From sequence record NC_055721.1: a stretch of 64,000 bases of DNA; one strand, given 5' to 3'. Both the position numbers and the translations under genes were made by a program. The first letter of the stretch is position 1. Every line of letters starts with the position of its first letter. This DNA comes from Escherichia phage EcS1. Shown here piece by piece: positions 16,037 through 56,267 of the stretch. The notes beneath the pieces were generated by a model. That model saw nothing but the letters and a program-made list of their open reading frames with translations. It made no database searches and was not told where the DNA came from.

Positions 16037-16070
16037 AAAAAAAAGGGAACCATATGGTTCCCTTTTTTTG
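16035..16070. terminator. Bidirectional terminator between convergent 24 and rnlB (A10-GGGAACCATATGGTTCCC-T7)
   Basis: Palindromic hairpin flanked by A-run and T-run. Confidence 0.8.
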
Positions 16071-19632: not shown

Positions 19633-19666
19633 AAAAAGGGAGAGCTTACGCTCTCCCTTTTTTATT
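19633..19666. terminator. Bidirectional terminator between convergent 19134..19631 and 19662..20375
   Basis: AAAAA-GGGAGAGC-TTAC-GCTCTCCC-TTTTTT. Confidence 0.8.
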
Positions 19667-30417: not shown

Positions 30418-30729
30418 TTAGTTACGGAAACCAATGAAAGCTGGAATTTCAAGGAACAAACTTGTGAATTGCTCTTTACCTTCAAGAGATTTATGGAAGA
30501 ACTTCACTGATACTGGGAATTCACCTTCAATTTTGCCATGAAGGATACCGTCAACAATTGTTTCAGATTGTTCTTCTTTACCAAAGATTTCTTGAGGAAT
30601 CATTAGAACATCATATTGCTCAGGTGATTTAAAAATCTGAGATGAGGCTTTTAATGCAAACTCATCAGAAATAGGAGTAACATTTTCAACAACGATTTCA
30701 GTTTGGTTAATACGTAAGATAGATTTCAT
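30418..30729 (-). CDS. Hypothetical protein (alt.-x region)
   Basis: 103 aa ORF with own sigma70-like promoter and SD in hairpin. Confidence 0.5.
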   Translation of the reverse strand: MKSILRINQTEIVVENVTPISDEFALKASSQIFKSPEQYDVLMIPQEIFGKEEQSETIVDGILHGKIEGEFPVSVKFFHKSLEGKEQFTSLFLEIPAFIGFRN

Positions 30730-30757
30730 AATAAGTTCCTCATGTGATTGAGGTTCT

Positions 30758-30786
30758 ATAGTACCACATCCTTGTGGTGTTGTAAA
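30758..30786 (-). promoter_or_regulatory. Sigma70-like early promoter (TTTACA-17-TACTAT) for ORF 30418..30729; -35 overlaps alt stop
   Basis: Hexamers and 17-nt spacer read on minus strand. Confidence 0.45.
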
Positions 30787-32850
30787 CTACCCTTGAATAA
30801 AACGTTCTGGGATTTCTTGGATGTCTATTAAAGAAGCTAAAAGAGCTAGTCCTTCTTTGTTAGGATTAGGCTTTGAAGCCTTCACAAATGAGGTAAAGTT
30901 CAATGGTTCAGAAGTGTCCATAGCAACAAGTTCACCATTCTCAAACAATGCATCACCATCATACACTATAGTAGATTCTTCAATTTGTTCTGAAGTCATG
31001 ATTTCAGCTTGAATGAACTTTTGGTTACTATATTGAATACCGTCATTATAAGAAGCATCAGTTATAGAATTAATGGATACCATTGTTCCACGAGGTAAAA
31101 TGATTTCCATTTCAGAAGGCATATTACTCAAATCACCAGGGAAGATGACGTTAATTTTATGACCACCATCAATAGCCCAACCAACTGTAACTCTGATATC
31201 ATTTTCAAATTGGCCTGGCATATCTTTTGCTTCTTCGGAACCTGCATCAATGTTAAGTTCACTACGAACTTCTTCAGGAGCTAAACCAATAGCCGAATTT
31301 CCTTTCCAACCACCAAAGATGATAGGAGCTAATGAAGTAGAAACATAATTACGGAAATAGAATACACGGTTTTTAATCAATGATTCCCAAATAGGCTTAC
31401 GTATAGTTTGAGAACGCCATAACGTAATATTTTCTGGGATGCGGTCACCACGTTCAAAAGCAGCATCAATTCCATCAATAGCTTCTAAGACTTCATAGCG
31501 ATTCATTATATTGCTACTTTGCTCAGACCAACGGCCAAGCAAATAATCATTAATATCATGATAACCAGAACCAACATATTCTCTGATACCACGTTGCTCT
31601 TTTACTGGATATTGTAAAGGAGTACGAGAGCCAGCTATACCATTAATATTATCTGATACGTTTTTGGCATAGTTTTGAAGTGATTCTTTGATGAACTTAG
31701 TTCTTAACATAGTCCATTCAGCTTGAGCACGTTCTTTTGACATGCCATAATTATCATCCAATTGTTTATCTATAAAATCTTCTTTAAAATCTTCAGTCAT
31801 ATCCATGCATAATTTAGCATATTCTTGCATACTTTTAACAGAAGTTAAAGGAGCTTGACCTATATTTTTAATTAAAACTTCAGTCATTCGATCTGACATT
31901 CTAGCAATAGTATCTTCATCAATAAATCTTAAATTTTTTAATCTATAACCAATACCGTTGACGGCTCTTTCTGCTGATCTTGTTCTAGCAGCCTTAGAAG
32001 TTAGCACCAATTCTAATTCGCGTGCTTCTGGGACTAAATTAGCAGTTGCCGGCTTATTAAACTTAGAAGCTCTGGCTTCAATTTCATCCCATTTAGGGTC
32101 ACTAAATGAATCCGTAGCCATTGATTGGGATGCAGCTACTTGTCGGCGCGAAACCTTAGTACGATTAATTACTGAACGATCTGAACGATCTTTTTCAATT
32201 TCAGCAATAGAACCAGCAAAAGCTTCATCTTTAGTTACATTTTCGCCTGTTTTCTTAGAAACATACACATCGCCGACCTTAGATTCAACCTTAGTGTATA
32301 GCTCAGAATTGATTTCAGGGATGCCAGAGATATCCTCTAGACCACGAGACTTACGATAGATAAGAATATATGCGTGCTTTGAAGTAAATGTATAGAGCGC
32401 ATCCAGGACTTTAAATTGACCACCTGTACGAGCCATTACCAGACGTTGCATGATGCGTTGAACAGTTCGTTCTTGGCCTTTCATTTTCTTGGCCGGGAAA
32501 CGGAACATCACAGCATCCATACGGTTCTTTTTAACTACTGAATACACAGTGTCGAAGATAGTATTCAATGCACCTACAGGATCGGAACCTAATCCACCTT
32601 TAAGTTCAGCAGGTGTTCCTTTATCACTTAGTGACATCAGAATAACGTGTGCGTATTTGTCGCCTTGTTTAATCTGTTTAGTCGCATCACCTTGAGACAA
32701 ATATGAAACCATACGAGCAACTAGCTTATCATTACCTGGAACTTTAATAGACCAGAGTTGTGGAACTTTTGCTTTTGGGTTCAAATCAATGACTGGATAT
32801 CCATTTTCGGATTCGCTGTCAAAAACTTCAACCAATAAATTATCAGTCAT
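30787..32850 (-). CDS. alt: Alt, packaged ADP-ribosyltransferase
   Basis: 687 aa; QKRGIREYVGSGY, NRVFYFRNFVSTSL, EMEVILPRG, LIQAEVMT-like blocks match recalled T4 Alt. Confidence 0.9.
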   Translation of the reverse strand: MTDNLLVEVFDSESENGYPVIDLNPKAKVPQLWSIKVPGNDKLVARMVSYLSQGDATKQIKQGDKYAHVILMSLSDKGTPAELKGGLGSDPVGALNTIFDTVYSVVKKNRMDAVMFRFPAKKMKGQERTVQRIMQRLVMARTGGQFKVLDALYTFTSKHAYILIYRKSRGLEDISGIPEINSELYTKVESKVGDVYVSKKTGENVTKDEAFAGSIAEIEKDRSDRSVINRTKVSRRQVAASQSMATDSFSDPKWDEIEARASKFNKPATANLVPEARELELVLTSKAARTRSAERAVNGIGYRLKNLRFIDEDTIARMSDRMTEVLIKNIGQAPLTSVKSMQEYAKLCMDMTEDFKEDFIDKQLDDNYGMSKERAQAEWTMLRTKFIKESLQNYAKNVSDNINGIAGSRTPLQYPVKEQRGIREYVGSGYHDINDYLLGRWSEQSSNIMNRYEVLEAIDGIDAAFERGDRIPENITLWRSQTIRKPIWESLIKNRVFYFRNYVSTSLAPIIFGGWKGNSAIGLAPEEVRSELNIDAGSEEAKDMPGQFENDIRVTVGWAIDGGHKINVIFPGDLSNMPSEMEIILPRGTMVSINSITDASYNDGIQYSNQKFIQAEIMTSEQIEESTIVYDGDALFENGELVAMDTSEPLNFTSFVKASKPNPNKEGLALLASLIDIQEIPERFIQG

Positions 32851-36853: not shown

Positions 36854-37216
36854 TTAGATAGTGAATTCAGATGAAACGATATCCCATAATGCTTCACGCT
36901 GCTCATCAGTAGTTTTCATACTTAACACATGACGCAACCATAACTTAACTAACATTTTGCGATTAGAACCGTTCCAAGATGGATGAGTACCTAAATCTCG
37001 AGTACGAACATCATCATGAAAACCAACTTTAATTACTGAACCTTTCAAAGAAACATCCAGCGTAATCCCGTTTTCGAAAGCAACATGAACATAGTTATCT
37101 TCCCAATACATGTTGATATCACACACTGTACCGTTTTCATGTTTCCATAAACATACAGTAGAAACATCCCATGCATTAGCTTTAACATATTTACGTTCGA
37201 AGTTTAAGTAGTTCAT
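36854..37216 (-). CDS. Hypothetical protein (about 120 aa; start reassigned downstream of promoter)
   Basis: ORF; promoter -10/-35 lie inside the track N-terminal extension. Confidence 0.5.
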   Translation of the reverse strand: MNYLNFERKYVKANAWDVSTVCLWKHENGTVCDINMYWEDNYVHVAFENGITLDVSLKGSVIKVGFHDDVRTRDLGTHPSWNGSNRKMLVKLWLRHVLSMKTTDEQREALWDIVSSEFTI

Positions 37217-37247
37217 TTTGTTATCCAAGTTTGCTGATTGAGTGTAC

Positions 37248-37276
37248 ATAATACCACACTCAATCAGCGTTGTAAA
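37248..37276 (-). promoter_or_regulatory. Sigma70-like early promoter (TTTACA-17-TATTAT) centred in a 13-bp perfect inverted repeat
   Basis: Hexamers on minus strand; IR arms 37233-37245 and 37256-37268. Confidence 0.45.
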
Positions 37277-37279
37277 CAC

Positions 37280-37817: not shown

Positions 37818-38171
37818 TTAAGCGATTGTGGTCCAGTTATCTAAATTGATAACACCTTTATCTTTCATTTGTTGAATCAATGCTTCAGCACGAGTACGAC
37901 CATTTTCATACCATGTGCAATCTTCATCATCATAAGTCTCAGAACGAATGCGACCTAAGATGACAGTTTTCAGAACATATTCTTCACCAGTAAACCAGTT
38001 AGTCAAACGAATTTTCCAAGAGAAATCATCTGACTGACCATCAGGAGTCATGCAATAAACCAGTTCAAATTGCTCCATAGATAATCCCCACTGAAGTTCT
38101 TTAACTGATTGAGCTTTGTAGCCATCATGATCTTTGCATTTGATGAAAGCGTTCAGATTAATAGTTTTCAT
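37818..38171 (-). CDS. Hypothetical protein (117 aa; start at MKTINL)
   Basis: ORF; GGAGA RBS; promoter TTTACT-16-TAAGAT upstream. Confidence 0.55.
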   Translation of the reverse strand: MKTINLNAFIKCKDHDGYKAQSVKELQWGLSMEQFELVYCMTPDGQSDDFSWKIRLTNWFTGEEYVLKTVILGRIRSETYDDEDCTWYENGRTRAEALIQQMKDKGVINLDNWTTIA

Positions 38172-38200
38172 TTTATTCTCCATTTGTTGATTGAGTGTAC

Positions 38201-38228
38201 ATCTTAACACAATCCTAGGAGAAGTAAA
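38201..38228 (-). promoter_or_regulatory. Sigma70-like early promoter (TTTACT-16-TAAGAT) sharing 15-bp -10 region with 37236-37250
   Basis: tgattgagtgtacat present at 37236-37250 and 38188-38202. Confidence 0.4.
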
Positions 38229-38232
38229 CACC

Positions 38233-39225: not shown

Positions 39226-39338
39226 TATAGAGCCTCAATATGAGGTAAAAATTAGGAGACAATCATCGGTTAACTAAGGTCCGACTGCCATTATCTCCAC
39301 ATAGAAGTGATCCTGTTAATGGTCACCACTTCATAAAT

Positions 39339-39692
39339 TTATTTATACACTACGCCTAACGACTTATAATGCGCAGCTACAAATTTTTGTTTTACTTCTT
39401 TAGGTTGTTTAATACCTAAAGCAACAAGTGGATGAATCACGTTTTTAAACGTTGGGTTACTTGCAAGATAAGGAACCAAATCACCTACTTCAATGAAACC
39501 AGTTGGAACTTCATCGCCAATGGAATGAACTTCCATTACTTCTGGTAATTGACCTTGTGTTTCTTTGCCTAAAAAGATTCCAGATTCAGATGTTTTATCA
39601 TCACCTGCTTGGGACGGTTCAGAGACAAAAATAATGTGCTCACCTAGAGCTTTAATTGGGAGTTCCATTTTATTACCTGTTTGGTAGACCAT
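39339..39692 (-). CDS. 31: Co-chaperonin gp31 (GroES analogue)
   Basis: LPIKALGEHIIFVSEPSQAGDD..HSIGDEVPTGF.EVGDL..HPLVALGIKQPKEVKQKF..HYK matches recalled T4 gp31. Confidence 0.9.
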   Translation of the reverse strand: MVYQTGNKMELPIKALGEHIIFVSEPSQAGDDKTSESGIFLGKETQGQLPEVMEVHSIGDEVPTGFIEVGDLVPYLASNPTFKNVIHPLVALGIKQPKEVKQKFVAAHYKSLGVVYK

Positions 39693-39724
39693 GAGTAAAT
39701 AATATCACTCATGGTCTAAAGCAT

Positions 39725-40048
39725 TTAACCAACAAACTTAACCAGATGTTCCATCTTCATTCCATTAAAGGAAACCAGTTTGTCGATGCTAAAGCCACGC
39801 CATTGTTTGATTTCAGTATCAAATGCTGGAACCATATCTACAGCTTCTTTACGAGGCTTACTAGGATTCACATAGCTTTCATAGATTGCAGGGTCAACCA
39901 GTTTACCAATTACATCTTTATCACGAGAAGCTTTCATTACACGCATGGTGCCATCAGCTTTTTCAAAGACTACTTCAGAAGTACCCATTGCCAGTTTAGT
40001 TTTCAAGACTTCACGCAGAGCTACTTTTTGATCTTCAGTTAATTTCAT
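39725..40048 (-). CDS. Hypothetical protein (31.1-like)
   Basis: 107 aa ORF. Confidence 0.5.
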   Translation of the reverse strand: MKLTEDQKVALREVLKTKLAMGTSEVVFEKADGTMRVMKASRDKDVIGKLVDPAIYESYVNPSKPRKEAVDMVPAFDTEIKQWRGFSIDKLVSFNGMKMEHLVKFVG

Positions 40049-45494: not shown

Positions 45495-45847
45495 CTGGTC
45501 GCCTCCTGCATATCCTGAGCGAACTTATTGAAGCTGTCATTGATTTGTTTCTCAACCAATTTAGGCTTCTTAGCTACTGTATCACTTCTTTTTGCGTCTG
45601 TAAACATCTTAGCATCAGACGTATCTCTTGCTAGACGATTTGCCTTACGTTCATCATCTAAAGCACTAAGACGAGTGAATCCATCTTTCAAATCTGTTAT
45701 CTGCTTATCTTGTTCTTTAACAGTTTGTTCAACATGAGTTAAAGATTCTTTTAAGTTATCGATACGGGCTTCTTGAATCTTTACAAAAGCAAAGACACTA
45801 AGAACACCTAGTATCAACAACATGTATCCACCATTTATAGTAGGCAT
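45491..45847 (-). CDS. i-spanin (Rz-like; T4 pseT.3 equivalent)
   Basis: N-terminal TM helix GYMLLILGVLSVFAFV then charged coiled-coil-like region; overlaps o-spanin start. Confidence 0.65.
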   Translation of the reverse strand: MPTINGGYMLLILGVLSVFAFVKIQEARIDNLKESLTHVEQTVKEQDKQITDLKDGFTRLSALDDERKANRLARDTSDAKMFTDAKRSDTVAKKPKLVEKQINDSFNKFAQDMQEATR

Positions 45848-46341
45848 AATTTAACGATTGTCTCAAAGATATCGTCTTGAGTCATATTGTTGATAAGAAT
45901 ATGATGGGGTGAATCAGAAGCTGAAATCTTAAAGCAAGTTTCAACCATTGAAGCCATTTCGTCAGCAGTTAAACGAGAATGCTGGATTCCAAGACGATGA
46001 TTACCATAGATTGGGTCAACAATAATGTAACATTTGTTGCCACTCAGATGGACATTAGGCTGGCTGATGTTAATGAACACTTCAGCGCCATATTTACCCA
46101 ACTGGTTTTCAAGGAAGCTCTTCATTTCTTCTACTGCGTCAGGCATAGCATCACGACGAGCTTCAGTGACTTTGTTGTTGTATTCTTTTTGCTTTTTACG
46201 TTTAGAAAGATTACGTGCCATGGCAATACGAAGATCGGTGATGTAACCAATAGTCTTAGAACCTTTAAAGATACTGATTCCATCATGACGATCACCGTAT
46301 TGAGCCATAACCATTTCATTTGTAATAAGTTGCATATTCAT
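45835..46341 (-). CDS. Alc-like protein (assigned by size and synteny; start moved to ATG after GAGGA RBS)
   Basis: 168 aa from MNMQLIT; lies between rnlA and spanins where T4 has alc (167 aa); sequence itself not verified. Confidence 0.4.
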   Translation of the reverse strand: MNMQLITNEMVMAQYGDRHDGISIFKGSKTIGYITDLRIAMARNLSKRKKQKEYNNKVTEARRDAMPDAVEEMKSFLENQLGKYGAEVFINISQPNVHLSGNKCYIIVDPIYGNHRLGIQHSRLTADEMASMVETCFKISASDSPHHILINNMTQDDIFETIVKLCLL

Positions 46342-46370
46342 TTTAATATCCTCATTTTGTTGGTAGGAGA

Positions 46371-46399
46371 ATCTTATCACAACAAAATGAGGATGTAAA
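46371..46399 (-). promoter_or_regulatory. Sigma70-like early promoter (TTTACA-17-TAAGAT) inside 15-bp inverted repeat upstream of alc-like gene
   Basis: IR arms 46348-46362 and 46380-46394; downstream arm contains the GAGGA RBS. Confidence 0.5.
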
Positions 46400-47572
46400 C
46401 TACTCTTGTTCGATTACAATTTCTTTCTTATATTCGTCTGGAACGAAGAACTTGTGATTCTTGTTAAAAGCTTCGTTAAGCTGTGGAATTAACTTATCTA
46501 GGTCTAAACCACCTGTGAACGCTTTCATCAGAATTGGGAACAGATAAGAACGGTCTGCATCTTTAAAGATTGTTTGAGCAGAGATAGCGAAGTCTTTACG
46601 GTCACGACCAGCTAGTTGCTTATAAGTTGTTTGAACTAAGTCTAATGCATGACGCAAGAACTCTAAATGAATAGTTTCAAACTTATCAATCTTAGTGATA
46701 GCCCATTCATCGCCTGCGAACATAGAACGAAGGTCATCAGAACCACCAGACACGACAGATTCGAAGAGAGCTTCGTTTTTAGTGATGGAATCTTTAGTAC
46801 GATGCAAAGCAACATACCAATCAGTTTTGAGCTTAAAGTTCAAACCGTTTTCCATTACAAAAACATAACCTTCTACACCTTCTTTGGCGCGAATGCCAGG
46901 CACAAATCGTTCATCGGCAGGAACATTAAATGCTTCTACCAAATGAGGACGAAGCATTGCATCTTTAAACAATTCTTCATATGGAACATATTCACCAGTC
47001 TTATTTTCACGAACATTCAGAAGAATCAGGTCACGTTTACTATAAGCCAGAACGATACGGTTATCTGGTGCAACGTATTCCATGTTACAAGTGAAGCCAT
47101 CTTTAGTAAGTTGAGTCACACGTTTCAAGAATTTTTCATAACGTGGACCATTGATAACTTGTAGTGCTGCATAAGCTTGTTCAGAAGAAATAGAAGCCTT
47201 AGACTTCAAGAACAGTTGGTCGTTATCTACAAAGCTAGAGATTAGAGAACCATCAGCCTTATCCATCATCAATTTGATTTTAGTAAGGTCCAAGTTCATG
47301 GTAAATGGAGTTTCATCTAAGTTAAAGAATTTTTCCATCGGACGAGCTGCAATACGAGTAGGCTTACCATCGACCATTTCAAACATAATGCCGCGGCACT
47401 CTAGAGCGTCAGGCAGAAGCCAATCAGAGTAAGATGCATAGTTATAACTGAAGATACGATACTCACCACCAAACGGCGTCTGGTAGTCACGGAAATAGAA
47501 TTTAGACTGGTCTTTTGGGTCAGTCAATTTCATCAGGTTTTTGTACAAATCATGTTCTTGTTTAGTAATCAT
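46400..47572 (-). CDS. rnlA: RNA ligase 1
   Basis: 390 aa; YRIFSYNYASYSDWLLPDALECRGIMFEM, EKFFNL, KADGSL, RIVLAY, ILLNVRENKTGEY match recalled T4 Rnl1. Confidence 0.95.
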   Translation of the reverse strand: MITKQEHDLYKNLMKLTDPKDQSKFYFRDYQTPFGGEYRIFSYNYASYSDWLLPDALECRGIMFEMVDGKPTRIAARPMEKFFNLDETPFTMNLDLTKIKLMMDKADGSLISSFVDNDQLFLKSKASISSEQAYAALQVINGPRYEKFLKRVTQLTKDGFTCNMEYVAPDNRIVLAYSKRDLILLNVRENKTGEYVPYEELFKDAMLRPHLVEAFNVPADERFVPGIRAKEGVEGYVFVMENGLNFKLKTDWYVALHRTKDSITKNEALFESVVSGGSDDLRSMFAGDEWAITKIDKFETIHLEFLRHALDLVQTTYKQLAGRDRKDFAISAQTIFKDADRSYLFPILMKAFTGGLDLDKLIPQLNEAFNKNHKFFVPDEYKKEIVIEQE

Positions 47573-47991: not shown

Positions 47992-48005
47992 GGGGCCGAA
48001 GCCCC
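47992..48005 (-). other. Intercistronic hairpin GGGGC-CGAA-GCCCC between nrdB and denA
   Basis: Read directly; TTT follows on minus strand. Confidence 0.6.
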
Positions 48006-55305: not shown

Positions 55306-55580
55306 TTTGTTTTCTTAGCAATTTTCCAGGCAGCTTTGAAAGCTTCGACTTCTTCAATTTCAATCCAAAAACCAGAACCAAAGCCATCGTCATAACAAGG
55401 ACAGCCGTCGCAATAGTCTTCCCAAGTAAGATCACGACCGCCAAGAGAAGAACCAGTTTCCATTGCACGCAGACGAATTTCAGCAGCTTCAATAGCTTCA
55501 GGGTCGTTACCTTCAATAGTGAAGTACCATTTTCCACGATATTCATTACCTAAGTTGATTGAGTTACGTTTAAGTTTCAT
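55302..55580 (-). CDS. Hypothetical protein (start at MKLKRNS after AAGGAG RBS)
   Basis: ORF with strong RBS. Confidence 0.5.
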   Translation of the reverse strand: MKLKRNSINLGNEYRGKWYFTIEGNDPEAIEAAEIRLRAMETGSSLGGRDLTWEDYCDGCPCYDDGFGSGFWIEIEEVEAFKAAWKIAKKTK

Positions 55581-55635
55581 TTTATTCTCCTTGTTGGTGT
55601 AGAAGCATAATACCATACCTCTACACCGTTGTACA

Positions 55636-55974
55636 CTACTTATTGAAAGTCTTTTTGATCAATGCAATCATTTCTTCTGCATTGCCTTCGTAGACAGTCA
55701 AAGTTATCGACTCATCTTTTATTTTTTCAAAGTATTTGAATTCACCTTGTGCTAGTTCAAAGTAAGGGACAAAACCACCTGAACCTGCAACTTGCCCATT
55801 GGCAAACTCGATTTCATCTACATAAAGGTCATAATCACATTTACTAACATTTCGAACAGTGAACCAACCACCATTCTTATCGATCAAACGAACCATTTCA
55901 TTGTTACAATGAGCATTTTCCATGAAAGCTGAGGTGCACTCTTCTTTCAAGCGATATTTTTTATCAACTTGCAT
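55636..55974 (-). CDS. Hypothetical protein
   Basis: 112 aa ORF. Confidence 0.5.
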   Translation of the reverse strand: MQVDKKYRLKEECTSAFMENAHCNNEMVRLIDKNGGWFTVRNVSKCDYDLYVDEIEFANGQVAGSGGFVPYFELAQGEFKYFEKIKDESITLTVYEGNAEEMIALIKKTFNK

Positions 55975-55976
55975 TT

Positions 55977-56207
55977 TTATTCACCTGATTCAACAATTGT
56001 ATCAAAAAGTTCTTCAATCATTTCTGGGTACATGCCAACACAGTACTCACGGTTTAGATAAAGATTGATAGTACGACGGTCACCTTCAATAGTGATTTCC
56101 ATACTGTAACCATTAGTAACACATTCAACTTCTTTAAGATTGTACTTATCAAGACAAGTCTCTTTGAAATAAGCATAATCGTAGATATCAATAGTTACTT
56201 TAGCCAT
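55977..56207 (-). CDS. Hypothetical small protein
   Basis: 76 aa ORF with own promoter and leader hairpin. Confidence 0.5.
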   Translation of the reverse strand: MAKVTIDIYDYAYFKETCLDKYNLKEVECVTNGYSMEITIEGDRRTINLYLNREYCVGMYPEMIEELFDTIVESGE

Positions 56208-56237
56208 TTTGTTTTCCTCACTTGTTTGTAGGAAAAC

Positions 56238-56266
56238 ATCTTACCACATCTAAATGAGGTTGTAAA
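56238..56266 (-). promoter_or_regulatory. Sigma70-like early promoter (TTTACA-17-TAAGAT) immediately after gene 32 terminator
   Basis: Hexamers read on minus strand; homologous to 46371-46399 unit. Confidence 0.5.
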
Positions 56267-56267
56267 C

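What the first reader, a model, noticed from the sequence alone, without database searches (positions are those of the whole stretch)
46341..46400. Early promoter embedded in a 15-bp perfect inverted repeat whose downstream arm contains the RBS of the alc-like gene
On the minus strand the order is GTTTACA(-35), arm ATCCTCATTTTGTTG, TAAGAT(-10), arm CAACAAAATGAGGAT (contains GAGGA), ATTAAAATG. A read-through transcript from upstream could fold the RBS into a 15-bp stem, whereas a transcript started at this promoter would contain only the downstream arm. This is the RBS-sequestration switch described for T4 genes e, soc and I-TevI, but here with a sigma70-type promoter. Related weaker SD-sequestering hairpins precede rIII (CCTCA-ATA-TGAGG at 39233-39245) and ORF 30418..30729 (30738-30753).
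Basis: partly seen in the sequence, partly recalled or inferred. Interest (0 to 1): 0.5.

Follow-up and report, generated by a model that had tools for sequence, protein, structure and literature searches.

The report
Early promoter inside RBS-masking hairpin
[quoted passage not shown] Transcripts begun at an early promoter inside that hairpin would lack the locking arm: a known T4 trick, here with an early rather than a late promoter, and not yet tested by experiment.

Summary
On the minus strand, the rnlA stop codon is followed by GTTTACA (-35), the arm ATCCTCATTTTGTTG, TG-n-TAAGAT (extended -10), the arm CAACAAAATGAGGAT (contains the SD GAGGA), then ATTAAA-ATG of alc (Pfam ALC, E = 1.6e-49).

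- **Not chance:** the 15-bp perfect inverted repeat is the longest in the 64-kb window, and none of 100 shuffles produced one.
- **Energetics:** read-through RNA folds at -18.7 kcal/mol (z = -5.5). RNA from the predicted +1 (A46364) is unstructured at -2.4 kcal/mol.
- **Conservation:** the same layout sits at the rnlA-alc junction of T4 and of 28 distinct sequences from at least 9 lineages. The arm sequences differ and co-vary, including the SD pairs (GAGG/CCTC, GGAG/CTCC, GGGG/CCCC).
- **Opening cost:** freeing the RBS costs 10-20 kcal/mol in read-through RNA and 1-4 kcal/mol in promoter-initiated RNA.

The most likely function is a transcript-origin switch that limits Alc translation to transcripts from its own early promoter. 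This has the architecture of T4 e/soc/I-TevI with the opposite temporal logic.

The element also belongs to the known PeSL class (early promoter plus stem-loop). In other lineages and at other promoters the stem stops short of the SD, so an attenuator or RNA-stabiliser role is not excluded. The two "related" hairpins named in the finding are weak. No experiment supports any of this yet.

The parts
46400..47572 (-). rnlA (gp63, RNA ligase 1 / tail-fibre attachment) CDS. Its stop codon TAG at 46402-46400 shares its G with GTTTACA.
   Evidence: ORF list; Pfam PF09511 and PF20819
46394..46400 (-). -35 element GTTTACA (T4 early-promoter type)
   Evidence: Sequence; promoter scan; invariant in 23 of 23 aligned orthologous junctions
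46380..46394 (-). 5' (upstream) arm ATCCTCATTTTGTTG. It is the anti-SD arm and lies in the promoter spacer, so it is absent from promoter-initiated RNA.
46371..46379 (-). Extended -10: TG (46379-46378), one base, then TAAGAT (46376-46371). It lies in the hairpin loop.
   Evidence: TG_before_second = yes; T22, T25, A26 and T30 invariant and G23 nearly invariant in alignment A2
46364..46364 (-). Predicted transcription start (A, 7 nt after the -10), 2 nt 5' of the 3' arm. This is a prediction, not a mapped end.
   Evidence: Inference from consensus spacing. The same rule gives an A at 27 of 28 orthologous junctions, 22-25 nt before the ATG
46348..46362 (-). 3' (downstream) arm CAACAAAATGAGGAT, containing the Shine-Dalgarno GAGGA (46353-46349)
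45835..46341 (-). alc CDS (167 aa plus stop), start ATG at 46341-46339. The GTG-extended ORF from 46380 listed mechanically is not the real start.
   Evidence: Pfam ALC covers residues 1-166, E = 1.6e-49; alignment with T4 and other Alc proteins

Best explanation
This is a transcript-origin switch on alc translation.

RNA polymerase arriving from upstream, on the transcripts that carry denA and rnlA, transcribes both arms. The 15-bp helix forms as soon as the 3' arm emerges and buries the SD GAGGA, so ribosomes load poorly on alc in these read-through RNAs.

RNA polymerase that starts at the sigma70/T4-early-type promoter begins at about A46364. The spacer of that promoter is the 5' arm and its -10 lies in the loop. 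The resulting 23-nt unstructured leader carries only the 3' arm, so the SD is free.

Alc, an immediate-early host-transcription inhibitor, would therefore be made essentially only while its own early promoter fires. Later read-through RNA from upstream promoters would still express rnlA but not alc.

**Shown:** the anatomy, the non-random stability, the energetic difference between the two RNAs, and conservation with covariation across genera including T4.

**Inferred:** promoter activity and start site, folding in vivo, the effect on translation, and the biological purpose.

The stem-loop may also stabilise or attenuate the rnlA message. The two roles are compatible.
For: - **Anatomy and chance:** the layout is exact. 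The inverted repeat is the longest in the window and absent from 100 shuffles.
- **Folding:** the hairpin folds at -18.7 kcal/mol, z = -5.5. RNA from +1 folds at -2.4 kcal/mol, z = +0.6. The hairpin persists in a 141-nt context and with 260 nt of upstream context.
- **Opening cost:** opening -15..+3 costs 10.8 versus 3.0 kcal/mol in the window. Across 28 distinct orthologous junctions it costs 10.3-20.1 versus 0.7-4.3 kcal/mol, with a median difference of 12.3.
- **Taxonomic range:** the same layout occurs in T4, Winklervirus, Karamvirus, Gelderlandvirus, Jiaodavirus, Bragavirus, Dhakavirus, Klebsiella phage Marfa and Enterobacter phage CIP9.
- **Promoter versus arms:** promoter residues are invariant while the arms differ.
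- **Covariation:** 10 of 15 pairs change on both sides, in 52 cells against 22 in shuffles (0 of 500 as high). The score is 0.346, against 0.174 for shuffles and at most 0.173 for slid partners.
- **Independent prediction:** RNAalifold recovers the stem on 12 in-register sequences, with double changes at the SD pairs (CG:6/UA:6 and CG:8/UA:3).
- **Per-sequence significance:** each junction has z between -3.2 and -7.9.
- **Not a terminator:** there is no U-tract after the stem, and it is not flagged as terminator-like.
- **T4 expression data:** alc is early RNA and early protein, whereas the adjacent upstream rnlA is early RNA and late protein, and denA is middle RNA and late protein (PMC9697503 Tables S2/S4).
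- **T4 promoters:** mapped middle promoters lie upstream (PI-TevIII, PnrdB, PnrdA) and none lies at alc (PMC2988021). Read-through RNA is therefore expected after early promoters shut off.
- **Precedent:** the mechanism is established for T4 e, soc, 49 and I-TevI (PMC3014915).
Against: - **No data on the element itself.** There is no 5'-end, 3'-end, structure-probing or translation data for this phage, and I found none for the T4 alc junction.
- **SD coverage is not universal.** Three lineages have an equally strong hairpin that spans the -10 but ends 2-8 nt before the SD (L030/L044, L034, Acinetobacter phages). Mosigvirus and Muldoonvirus have only a small hairpin inside the spacer. Four lineages have none.
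- **Mixed picture at other promoters.** All six early-type promoters found in the window carry a stem-loop starting in the spacer, but only alc has a strong one over the SD. This points to a generic stem-loop function, with SD masking as an add-on.
- **Strand test inconclusive.** The sense strand is more stable than the antisense in only 16 of 28 sequences, p = 0.53.
- **Register problem.** RNAalifold on all 28 sequences gave no consensus because the helix register shifts between lineages. The column-wise covariation counts therefore rest on a model-fitted alignment.
- **Possible partial opening.** In the window the stem starts only 5 nt after the rnlA stop codon. A terminating ribosome could open about 4-5 basal pairs, exactly those holding GGA of the SD.
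Confidence: 0.6

Rival explanations
1. This is a generic PeSL stem-loop. It attenuates or terminates transcription coming from rnlA, or serves as a 3' hairpin that protects rnlA mRNA from 3' exonucleases. Under this view the inclusion of the SD in the 3' arm is incidental.
For: PeSLs, which combine an early promoter with a stem-loop that often overlaps the -10, are described in RB49/phi1, PST/T4 and nt-1/KVP40. One RB49 stem-loop reduced downstream lacZ as strongly as rrnB T1 (PMC2839356 and PMC4122927). All six early-type promoters in the window, and a MotA-type middle promoter at 39726, have such stem-loops. At alc junctions of other lineages, equally strong hairpins do not cover the SD.
Against: There is no U-tract after the stem: ATTAAAAT in the window and TATGATGG in T4. 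The loop is 17 nt and the stem AU-rich, and the terminator scan does not flag it. The SD pairs themselves co-vary (GAGG/CCTC, GGAG/CTCC, GGGG/CCCC), which an incidental overlap does not predict. Twenty-eight of 43 distinct junctions cover the SD. The junction lies between syntenic conserved genes, not in a hyperplastic ORFan region as is typical of PeSLs.
Confidence: 0.22
2. This is a translational coupling device. The hairpin keeps alc silent on polycistronic RNA unless a ribosome finishing rnlA melts the base of the stem and hands over to the alc SD.
For: In the window the stem begins 5 nt after the rnlA stop codon. A terminating ribosome covers roughly 9-10 nt 3' of the stop (general knowledge). 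It could therefore open 4-5 basal pairs, which hold the GGA of the SD.
Against: The gap between stop codon and stem is 9-10 nt in T4, CkP1, myPSH1140 and STP4-a. There a terminating ribosome would reach 0-1 pair, so the geometry is not conserved. At least 10 bp would remain paired in every case. In T4, Alc and RnlA proteins fall in different temporal classes, which argues against tight coupling.
Confidence: 0.07
3. This is an RNA processing site, for example for RNase III. The long helix is cut, which separates the rnlA and alc messages and either activates or inactivates the alc RBS.
For: Stems are long: 15 bp here and about 22 bp with one bulge in T4. Intergenic RNase III hairpins are well known in T7 early mRNA (general knowledge).
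Against: Fifteen base pairs is short for RNase III. No internal-loop motif is conserved, and loop sequences are constrained by the -10 rather than by any processing signal. There is no evidence of processing here.
Confidence: 0.05
4. This is a DNA-level element: a cruciform that exposes the -10, or a symmetric operator for a protein that shuts off early promoters.
For: The repeat is centred on the -10. The sense-versus-antisense stability test does not favour RNA. The mechanism of early-promoter shutoff is described as not completely understood (PMC3014915).
Against: Arm sequences differ completely between promoters of the same phage: ATCCTCATTTTGTTG, GCTGATTGAGTGT and GGTGTAGAGG. A sequence-specific operator is therefore excluded. 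T4 and the hairpins that stop short of the SD contain 2-3 G-U pairs that are mismatches in DNA and on the other strand. A DNA-level role does not explain why the 3' arm tracks the SD.
Confidence: 0.04

Closest known systems
[quoted passage not shown]
   Same: The SD is buried in a helix in long transcripts from upstream promoters. A promoter placed between or within the arms gives a shorter RNA that lacks the 5' arm and is translated. The arrangement is conserved among related phages.
   Different: In those cases the internal promoter is a late promoter (TATAAATA), so translation is delayed until late. Here it is a sigma70/T4-early promoter, so translation would be confined to the earliest minutes. 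That review does not list alc among the examples. The effect on translation has been measured for e and I-TevI but not here.
PeSL (promoter-early stem-loop) cassettes of T4-like phages (Arbiol 2010, PMC2839356; Comeau 2014, PMC4122927)
   Same: The order is upstream stop codon, strong sigma70-like early promoter (TTTACW-N17-TAYWAT in the T4 group), a stem-loop overlapping the promoter or -10, then the SD and ATG of the next gene. The window's other early promoters carry the same type of stem-loop.
   Different: PeSL stem-loops are described in five positions, none of which includes the SD. They are interpreted as terminators or attenuators and as recombination sites in hyperplastic ORFan regions. 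The alc element sits between conserved syntenic genes, its 3' arm contains the SD, and SD and anti-SD co-vary.
Aeh1 mobE and T4 segB / I-TevII / I-TevIII RBS-sequestering hairpins (cited in PMC3014915)
   Same: An RNA hairpin covers the RBS of a phage gene to limit its translation.
   Different: Those restrain homing-endonuclease genes, and no embedded early promoter is described for them.
Rho-independent (intrinsic) terminator
   Same: A stable stem-loop immediately after a stop codon.
   Different: The stem is not GC-rich, the loop is 17 nt, and no U-tract follows. The terminator scan does not detect it.

Membership tests
Promoter-in-hairpin RBS-sequestration switch (T4 e / soc / 49 / I-TevI type) | SD and/or start codon paired in a stable helix in transcripts from upstream | tested here: met
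   GAGGA is fully inside a 15-bp helix of -18.7 kcal/mol (z = -5.5). Opening -15..+3 costs 10.8 kcal/mol with 260 nt of upstream context. This is predicted, not probed.
Promoter-in-hairpin RBS-sequestration switch (T4 e / soc / 49 / I-TevI type) | A promoter positioned so that its transcript lacks the 5' arm | tested here: met
   GTTTACA-17-TG-n-TAAGAT has its -10 in the loop, and the predicted +1 (A46364) is 2 nt before the 3' arm. Promoter residues are invariant in 23 orthologues. The start site is inferred, not mapped.
Promoter-in-hairpin RBS-sequestration switch (T4 e / soc / 49 / I-TevI type) | The internal promoter is a T4 late promoter (TATAAATA) | tested here: not met
   There is no TATAAATA on the minus strand between 46400 and 57287. 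The promoter is the early, sigma70 type.
Promoter-in-hairpin RBS-sequestration switch (T4 e / soc / 49 / I-TevI type) | Translation from long transcripts is experimentally lower than from short ones | not testable with these tools
   This needs reporter fusions, toeprinting or ribosome profiling.
PeSL (promoter-early stem-loop cassette) | Strong sigma70-like early promoter between an upstream stop codon and the downstream SD/ATG | tested here: met
PeSL (promoter-early stem-loop cassette) | A stable stem-loop adjacent to or overlapping the promoter | tested here: met
   The arms flank the -10. The same holds at five other early-type promoters in the window.
PeSL (promoter-early stem-loop cassette) | The stem-loop acts as a transcription terminator or attenuator | not testable with these tools
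   No U-tract follows and the terminator scan does not flag it. Function would need Term-seq or in vitro transcription.
PeSL (promoter-early stem-loop cassette) | Located in hyperplastic regions next to variable ORFans, marking indel or recombination points | tested here: not met
   The rnlA-alc-spanin order is syntenic in every Tevenvirinae relative examined.
Intrinsic terminator | GC-rich stem, short loop, 3' U-tract | tested here: not met
   The stem is AU-rich with 5 G-C pairs in 15, the loop is 17 nt, and ATTAAAAT follows.
Any curated Rfam family | Match reaching the family's gathering score | tested here: not met
   The only hit is RNA-OUT at 21.7 bits against a gathering score of 41, E = 0.86, on the opposite strand.

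The most novel reading that the evidence does not exclude
Anti-SD sequences placed in the spacers of early promoters, and perhaps MotA-type middle promoters, may be a general device of T4-like phages. They would make translation depend on where a transcript started. When early promoters shut off, read-through RNA from upstream promoters still covers immediate-early genes but cannot be translated.

This would be a cis-encoded component of the incompletely understood shutoff of early protein synthesis, acting alongside RegB cleavage of GGAG Shine-Dalgarno sites. Candidate members are alc in many genera, T4 30.8, and the weaker cases in the window at 38228 and 56266.
Probability: 0.25. Interest if true: 0.65.

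Novelty: new variant of a known kind. Interest (0 to 1): 0.45.

Why it matters
If true, T4-like phages use the same hairpin-plus-internal-promoter device in both temporal directions. A late promoter in the hairpin delays translation (e, soc, I-TevI). An early promoter in the hairpin confines translation to the first minutes (alc).

That would explain how adjacent, co-directional genes can have different protein kinetics without a terminator between them. In T4, Alc is an early protein and RnlA a late one.

It would also add a cis-acting mechanism to the shutoff of early protein synthesis, and give PeSL stem-loops a second, testable function. The orthologous element is in T4 itself, so it can be tested directly in the best-developed phage system. 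For annotation, it gives a recognisable signature: GTTTACA, anti-SD in the spacer, -10 in the loop, SD in the 3' arm.

Tried and rejected
1. **Strand-asymmetry test.** I compared sense and antisense MFE, and G-U against A-C mismatches, to separate an RNA-level from a DNA-level role. The result was inconclusive: the sense strand was more stable in 16 of 28, Wilcoxon p = 0.53.
2. **RNAalifold on all 28 SD-covering junctions.** It gave no consensus structure because the helix register shifts by 1-3 nt between lineages. It worked on a 12-sequence in-register subset.
3. **MAFFT alignment alone.** It put the 3' arm out of register, so I realigned with a covariance model. That alignment leans towards the structure.
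4. **Rfam.** Nothing was found.
5. **Literature on an alc hairpin or a mapped alc start site.** Searches found no description. The T4 post-transcriptional review lists e, soc, 49, I-TevI/II/III, mobE and segB but not alc. The 2003 T4 genome review (PMC150520) is not held, so I cannot exclude an older mention there or in the 1980s sequence papers.
6. **Late or middle promoters that could feed read-through RNA.** No TATAAATA lies on the minus strand between alc and 57287. No MotA-box promoter lies between alc and 57465 by a strict pattern. Read-through in this phage would therefore come from more distant early or middle promoters. The T4 middle promoters upstream are taken from the literature.
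I rejected them as not better than shuffles.
8. **A sequence-specific repressor operator.** I rejected this because arm sequences differ between promoters of the same phage.
Full report
**Observation**

Reading the minus strand of 46100-46700 gives this order:
- the end of a 390-aa ORF, with stop TAG at 46402-46400
- GTTTACA at 46400-46394
- ATCCTCATTTTGTTG at 46394-46380
- TG at 46379-46378, then one base
- TAAGAT at 46376-46371
- TCTCCTAC
- CAACAAAATGAGGAT at 46362-46348
- ATTAAA, then ATG at 46341-46339

The two 15-nt stretches are perfectly complementary with 17 nt between them. The repeat finder extends them to 20 nt at 90%. The consensus scan reports TTTACA-17-TAAGAT with a TG before the -10. 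By itself that scan is uninformative, since it found 19 sites against 17.6 expected.

Pfam identifies the downstream protein as Alc (PF17527, E = 1.6e-49, residues 1-166). It identifies the upstream protein as T4-type RNA ligase 1, preceded by a GIY-YIG protein in the position of denA. Two spanin-like ORFs follow alc.

The window comes from a T4-like phage. Its nearest deposited relative over this stretch is Serratia phage X20 (Winklervirus) at about 76% identity. An IMG/VR contig of 175 kb encodes an identical Alc (L016).

**Is it more than chance?**

The 15-bp repeat is the longest perfect inverted repeat (loop 3-40 nt) in the 64-kb window. There are six repeats of at least 12 bp. One hundred dinucleotide-preserving shuffles gave on average 0.25 of these and never one of 15 bp or more.

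As RNA, the hairpin alone folds at -18.7 kcal/mol (z = -5.5, 0 of 200 shuffles as good). It is retained in an 85-nt and a 141-nt context.

**The two transcripts**

With the usual 7-nt distance from the -10, the start falls on A46364, which is 2 nt before the 3' arm. RNA from that point to +30 of alc is essentially unstructured (-2.4 kcal/mol, z = +0.6).

I computed the free energy needed to make -15..+3 single-stranded. It is 10.8 kcal/mol in a read-through RNA with 260 nt of upstream context. It is 3.0 kcal/mol in the promoter-initiated RNA.

**Comparative evidence**

tblastn with Alc finds the gene in 1131 phage records. I collected 57 rnlA-alc junctions from annotated phages and IMG/VR contigs. 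From the -35 to the ATG these give 43 distinct sequences.

In 28 of them the layout matches the window: upstream stop codon, GTTTACA, an arm starting right after the -35, TG-n-TAnnnT in the loop, an arm containing the SD, then the ATG. These 28 include:
- T4 itself: TAAGTTGTTTACA-AGTCCCTCGTGTTGTGT-TATAGT-...-ACATAACATGAGGACTT-tATGATG
- other Tequatrovirus, Winklervirus, Karamvirus, Gelderlandvirus, Jiaodavirus, Bragavirus and Dhakavirus
- Klebsiella phage Marfa and Enterobacter phage CIP9

The promoter residues are invariant (GTTTACA, T of TG, TA...T), while the arms differ and remain complementary. Examples are ATCCTCATTTTGTTG/CAACAAAATGAGGAT, ATCTCCATTTGGTTG/TAACCAAATGGAGA, ATCCTCATCAG/CTGATGAGGAT, AACCTCTCATTTT/AAAATGAGAGGTT and AACCCCGTTTTGTT/AACAAAATGGGGATT. 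The SD and its partner change together: GAGG/CCTC, GGAG/CTCC, GGGG/CCCC.

The statistics are as follows.
- Each of the 28 sequences is individually far more stable than its shuffles, with z between -3.2 and -7.9 and a median of -5.6.
- Opening the RBS costs 10.3-20.1 kcal/mol in read-through RNA and 0.7-4.3 kcal/mol in promoter-initiated RNA, with a median difference of 12.3.
- The predicted +1 is an A in 27 of 28 sequences.
- On a covariance-model alignment of the 28, 10 of 15 pairs show changes on both sides, in 52 cells against 22 in shuffles (0 of 500 as high). The covariation score is 0.346, against 0.174 for shuffles and at most 0.173 with partners slid by 1-3 columns.

There is a caveat. 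That alignment is fitted to the structure, the sequences are related, and RNAalifold on all 28 gave no consensus because the register shifts between lineages. On 12 sequences that share the window's register, RNAalifold independently predicts the stem. It finds 15 pairs at -16.5 kcal/mol, 4 of them with double changes, including the SD pairs.

**Evidence that complicates a pure SD-masking reading**

At the same junction, three lineages carry an equally strong hairpin spanning the -10 whose 3' arm stops 2-8 nt before the SD. These are L030/L044, L034 and the Acinetobacter phages. Their z values are -4.0 to -7.1, and the difference in opening cost is only about 2 kcal/mol.

Mosigvirus (HX01) and Muldoonvirus have only a small hairpin within the spacer. 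Four lineages have nothing obvious.

Within the window, a strict filter finds six T4-type early promoters, all on the minus strand, and all have a stem-loop whose 5' arm lies in the spacer.
- 37276 and 55635 have 13-14-bp stems that do not cover the SD.
- 38228 (TTCTCC/GGAGAA) and 56266 (CCTCAT/GTGAGG) have short SD-complementary stretches.
- 30786 has a spacer hairpin.
- alc is the only strong SD-covering case.

A MotA-box middle promoter at 39726 is embedded in the same way. In a 12-kb T4 segment, the promoters of alc and 30.8 cover the SD and that of 30.7 does not.

This is the published PeSL class of early promoter plus stem-loop. Five subclasses are defined by stem position and none includes the SD. 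The authors interpret the stem-loops as terminators or attenuators and as recombination sites (PMC2839356, PMC4122927). The alc element is therefore best seen as a PeSL-type promoter whose stem has been extended over, or selected to include, the SD.

**Mechanism**

The best-supported explanation (confidence about 0.6) is a transcript-origin switch. Read-through RNA from upstream folds the SD into the helix. RNA started inside the hairpin does not.

The logic mirrors the T4 cases e, soc, 49 and I-TevI, where a late promoter sits in the hairpin (PMC3014915). Here the internal promoter is early, so translation would be restricted to the immediate-early period.

Published T4 data are consistent with this.
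- alc is early RNA and early protein, whereas rnlA immediately upstream is early RNA and late protein, and denA is middle RNA and late protein (PMC9697503 supplementary tables).
- Mapped middle promoters lie upstream (PI-TevIII, PnrdB, PnrdA), and none lies at alc (PMC2988021).
- No intrinsic terminator separates rnlA from alc. No U-tract follows the stem, and the scan does not flag it.

These data do not prove the hairpin is responsible.

**Rivals**

- **Generic PeSL attenuator or 3'-end stabiliser for rnlA mRNA (about 0.22).** It is supported by the ubiquity of promoter-embedded stems that do not touch the SD. It is weakened by the lack of terminator features, by covariation at the SD pairs, and by the syntenic, non-hyperplastic location. 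It is compatible with the switch.
- **Translational coupling to rnlA termination (about 0.07).** In the window the stem begins 5 nt after the stop codon, so a terminating ribosome might open the 4-5 basal pairs that hold GGA. In T4, Karamvirus and Gelderlandvirus the gap is 9-10 nt, so the geometry is not conserved.
- **RNase III-type processing (about 0.05).** There is no specific support.
- **DNA-level cruciform or operator (about 0.04).** The strand-asymmetry test was inconclusive. Arm sequences differ between promoters of one phage, several stems rely on G-U pairs, and a DNA-level role would not explain why the arm tracks the SD.

**Side claims in the finding**

CCTCA-TAT-TGAGG before the rIII-like ORF (39245-39233) and CCTCA-ATCACA-TGAGG before ORF 30729 (30753-30738) exist. 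Both are 5-bp stems, at -5.1 and -5.9 kcal/mol. They are matched by 29 and 16 of 200 shuffles respectively.

**Novelty**

The kind of mechanism is known, and so is the PeSL class. What I could not find described is the SD-covering variant with an early promoter at alc, although the sequence has been in the T4 genome for decades. The main T4 post-transcriptional review does not list alc, the PeSL papers do not mention SD pairing, and full-text searches found nothing.

The 2003 T4 genome review and the 1980s sequence papers are not in the library, so an earlier remark cannot be excluded. I rate it a new variant of a known kind with moderate interest (0.45). It is well supported in silico, directly testable in T4, and not surprising in principle to a T4 specialist.

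Noticed in passing
window 39668-39730 (minus strand): A MotA-box middle-type promoter (AAATGCTTTA, 12 nt, TATTAT) is embedded in an 11-12-bp inverted repeat (AGACCATGAGT / ACTCATGGTCT) with the -10 in the loop. It lies upstream of the gp31-like co-chaperonin gene. The ATG at 39692 listed as the ORF start lies inside the 3' arm. The real start is probably ATG 39668 (MELPIKALGEH...). This resembles the 'PmSL' described for phage nt-1.
   Followed up: partly
window 37214-37277 and 55578-55636 (minus strand): Two further early-type promoters (GTTTACA or GTGTACA, 17 nt, TATTAT) have strong 13-14-bp stems flanking the -10 (GCTGATTGAGTGT..ACACTCAATCAGC at -23.5 kcal/mol; GGTGTAGAGG..CTTCTACACC at -20.3 kcal/mol). 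The stems end 6-8 nt before the SD, and no U-tract follows. Their function is unexplained.
   Followed up: partly
window 38169-38229 and 56205-56267 (minus strand): Two early-type promoters have a short anti-SD in the spacer directly after the -35 (TTCTCC pairing with GGAGAA; CCTCATTT pairing with AAGTGAGG). They may be weak versions of the alc design. The covariance model built from alc junctions scores them at 35 and 48 bits.
   Followed up: partly
L015 2252-2311 (T4 130253-130309, upstream of gene 30.8): The T4 early promoter before gene 30.8 also has a spacer arm (TCCTTTGTG) complementary to the SD region (CAAAGGAG). It is a second candidate for the same switch in T4. Gene 30.8 is classed as early RNA and early protein in PMC9697503.
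   Followed up: partly
window 47992-48005 (minus strand): A terminator-like GC hairpin with a UUCG loop (GGGGCTTCGGCCCC followed by TTTATCGT) sits in the 28-nt gap between nrdB and the denA-like gene. It could limit read-through from nrdB into denA-rnlA-alc.
   Followed up: no
window 47569-47572 and 45835-45847: There are gene overlaps suggesting translational coupling. The denA-like stop overlaps the rnlA start (ATGA, 4 nt). The end of alc overlaps the start of the i-spanin-like ORF by 13 nt.
   Followed up: no
window 16038-16051 and 19633-19645: There are perfect 13-14-bp inverted repeats made of an A-run plus a GC core (AAAAAAAGGGAACC, AAAAAGGGAGAGC). They look like bidirectional intrinsic terminators in the late-gene region.
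   Followed up: no
window, whole: The T4 late-promoter motif TATAAATA occurs 16 times, against 5.8 expected (0 of 100 shuffles reach 16). Most copies are on the plus strand between 6.5 and 24 kb, consistent with a late structural-gene block there.
   Followed up: no
window 30749-30787 (minus strand): At the early-type promoter before ORF 30729, the spacer holds its own small hairpin (CCACAaggaTGTGG). The predicted start (about 30751) falls inside the 5' arm of the small SD hairpin CCTCA/TGAGG, so the promoter-initiated RNA would lack part of that arm. The stem is only 5 bp and is not significant.
   Followed up: partly
L056 1415-1482 (IMG/VR Acinetobacter-type phage): At the junction upstream of alc, the hairpin AACCCATTATG..CATAATGGGTT overlaps the -10 (CATAAT) and is followed by TTTATTCTTTTT. 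This is a true terminator-like PeSL, in contrast with the U-less stems of the Tevenvirinae.
   Followed up: no
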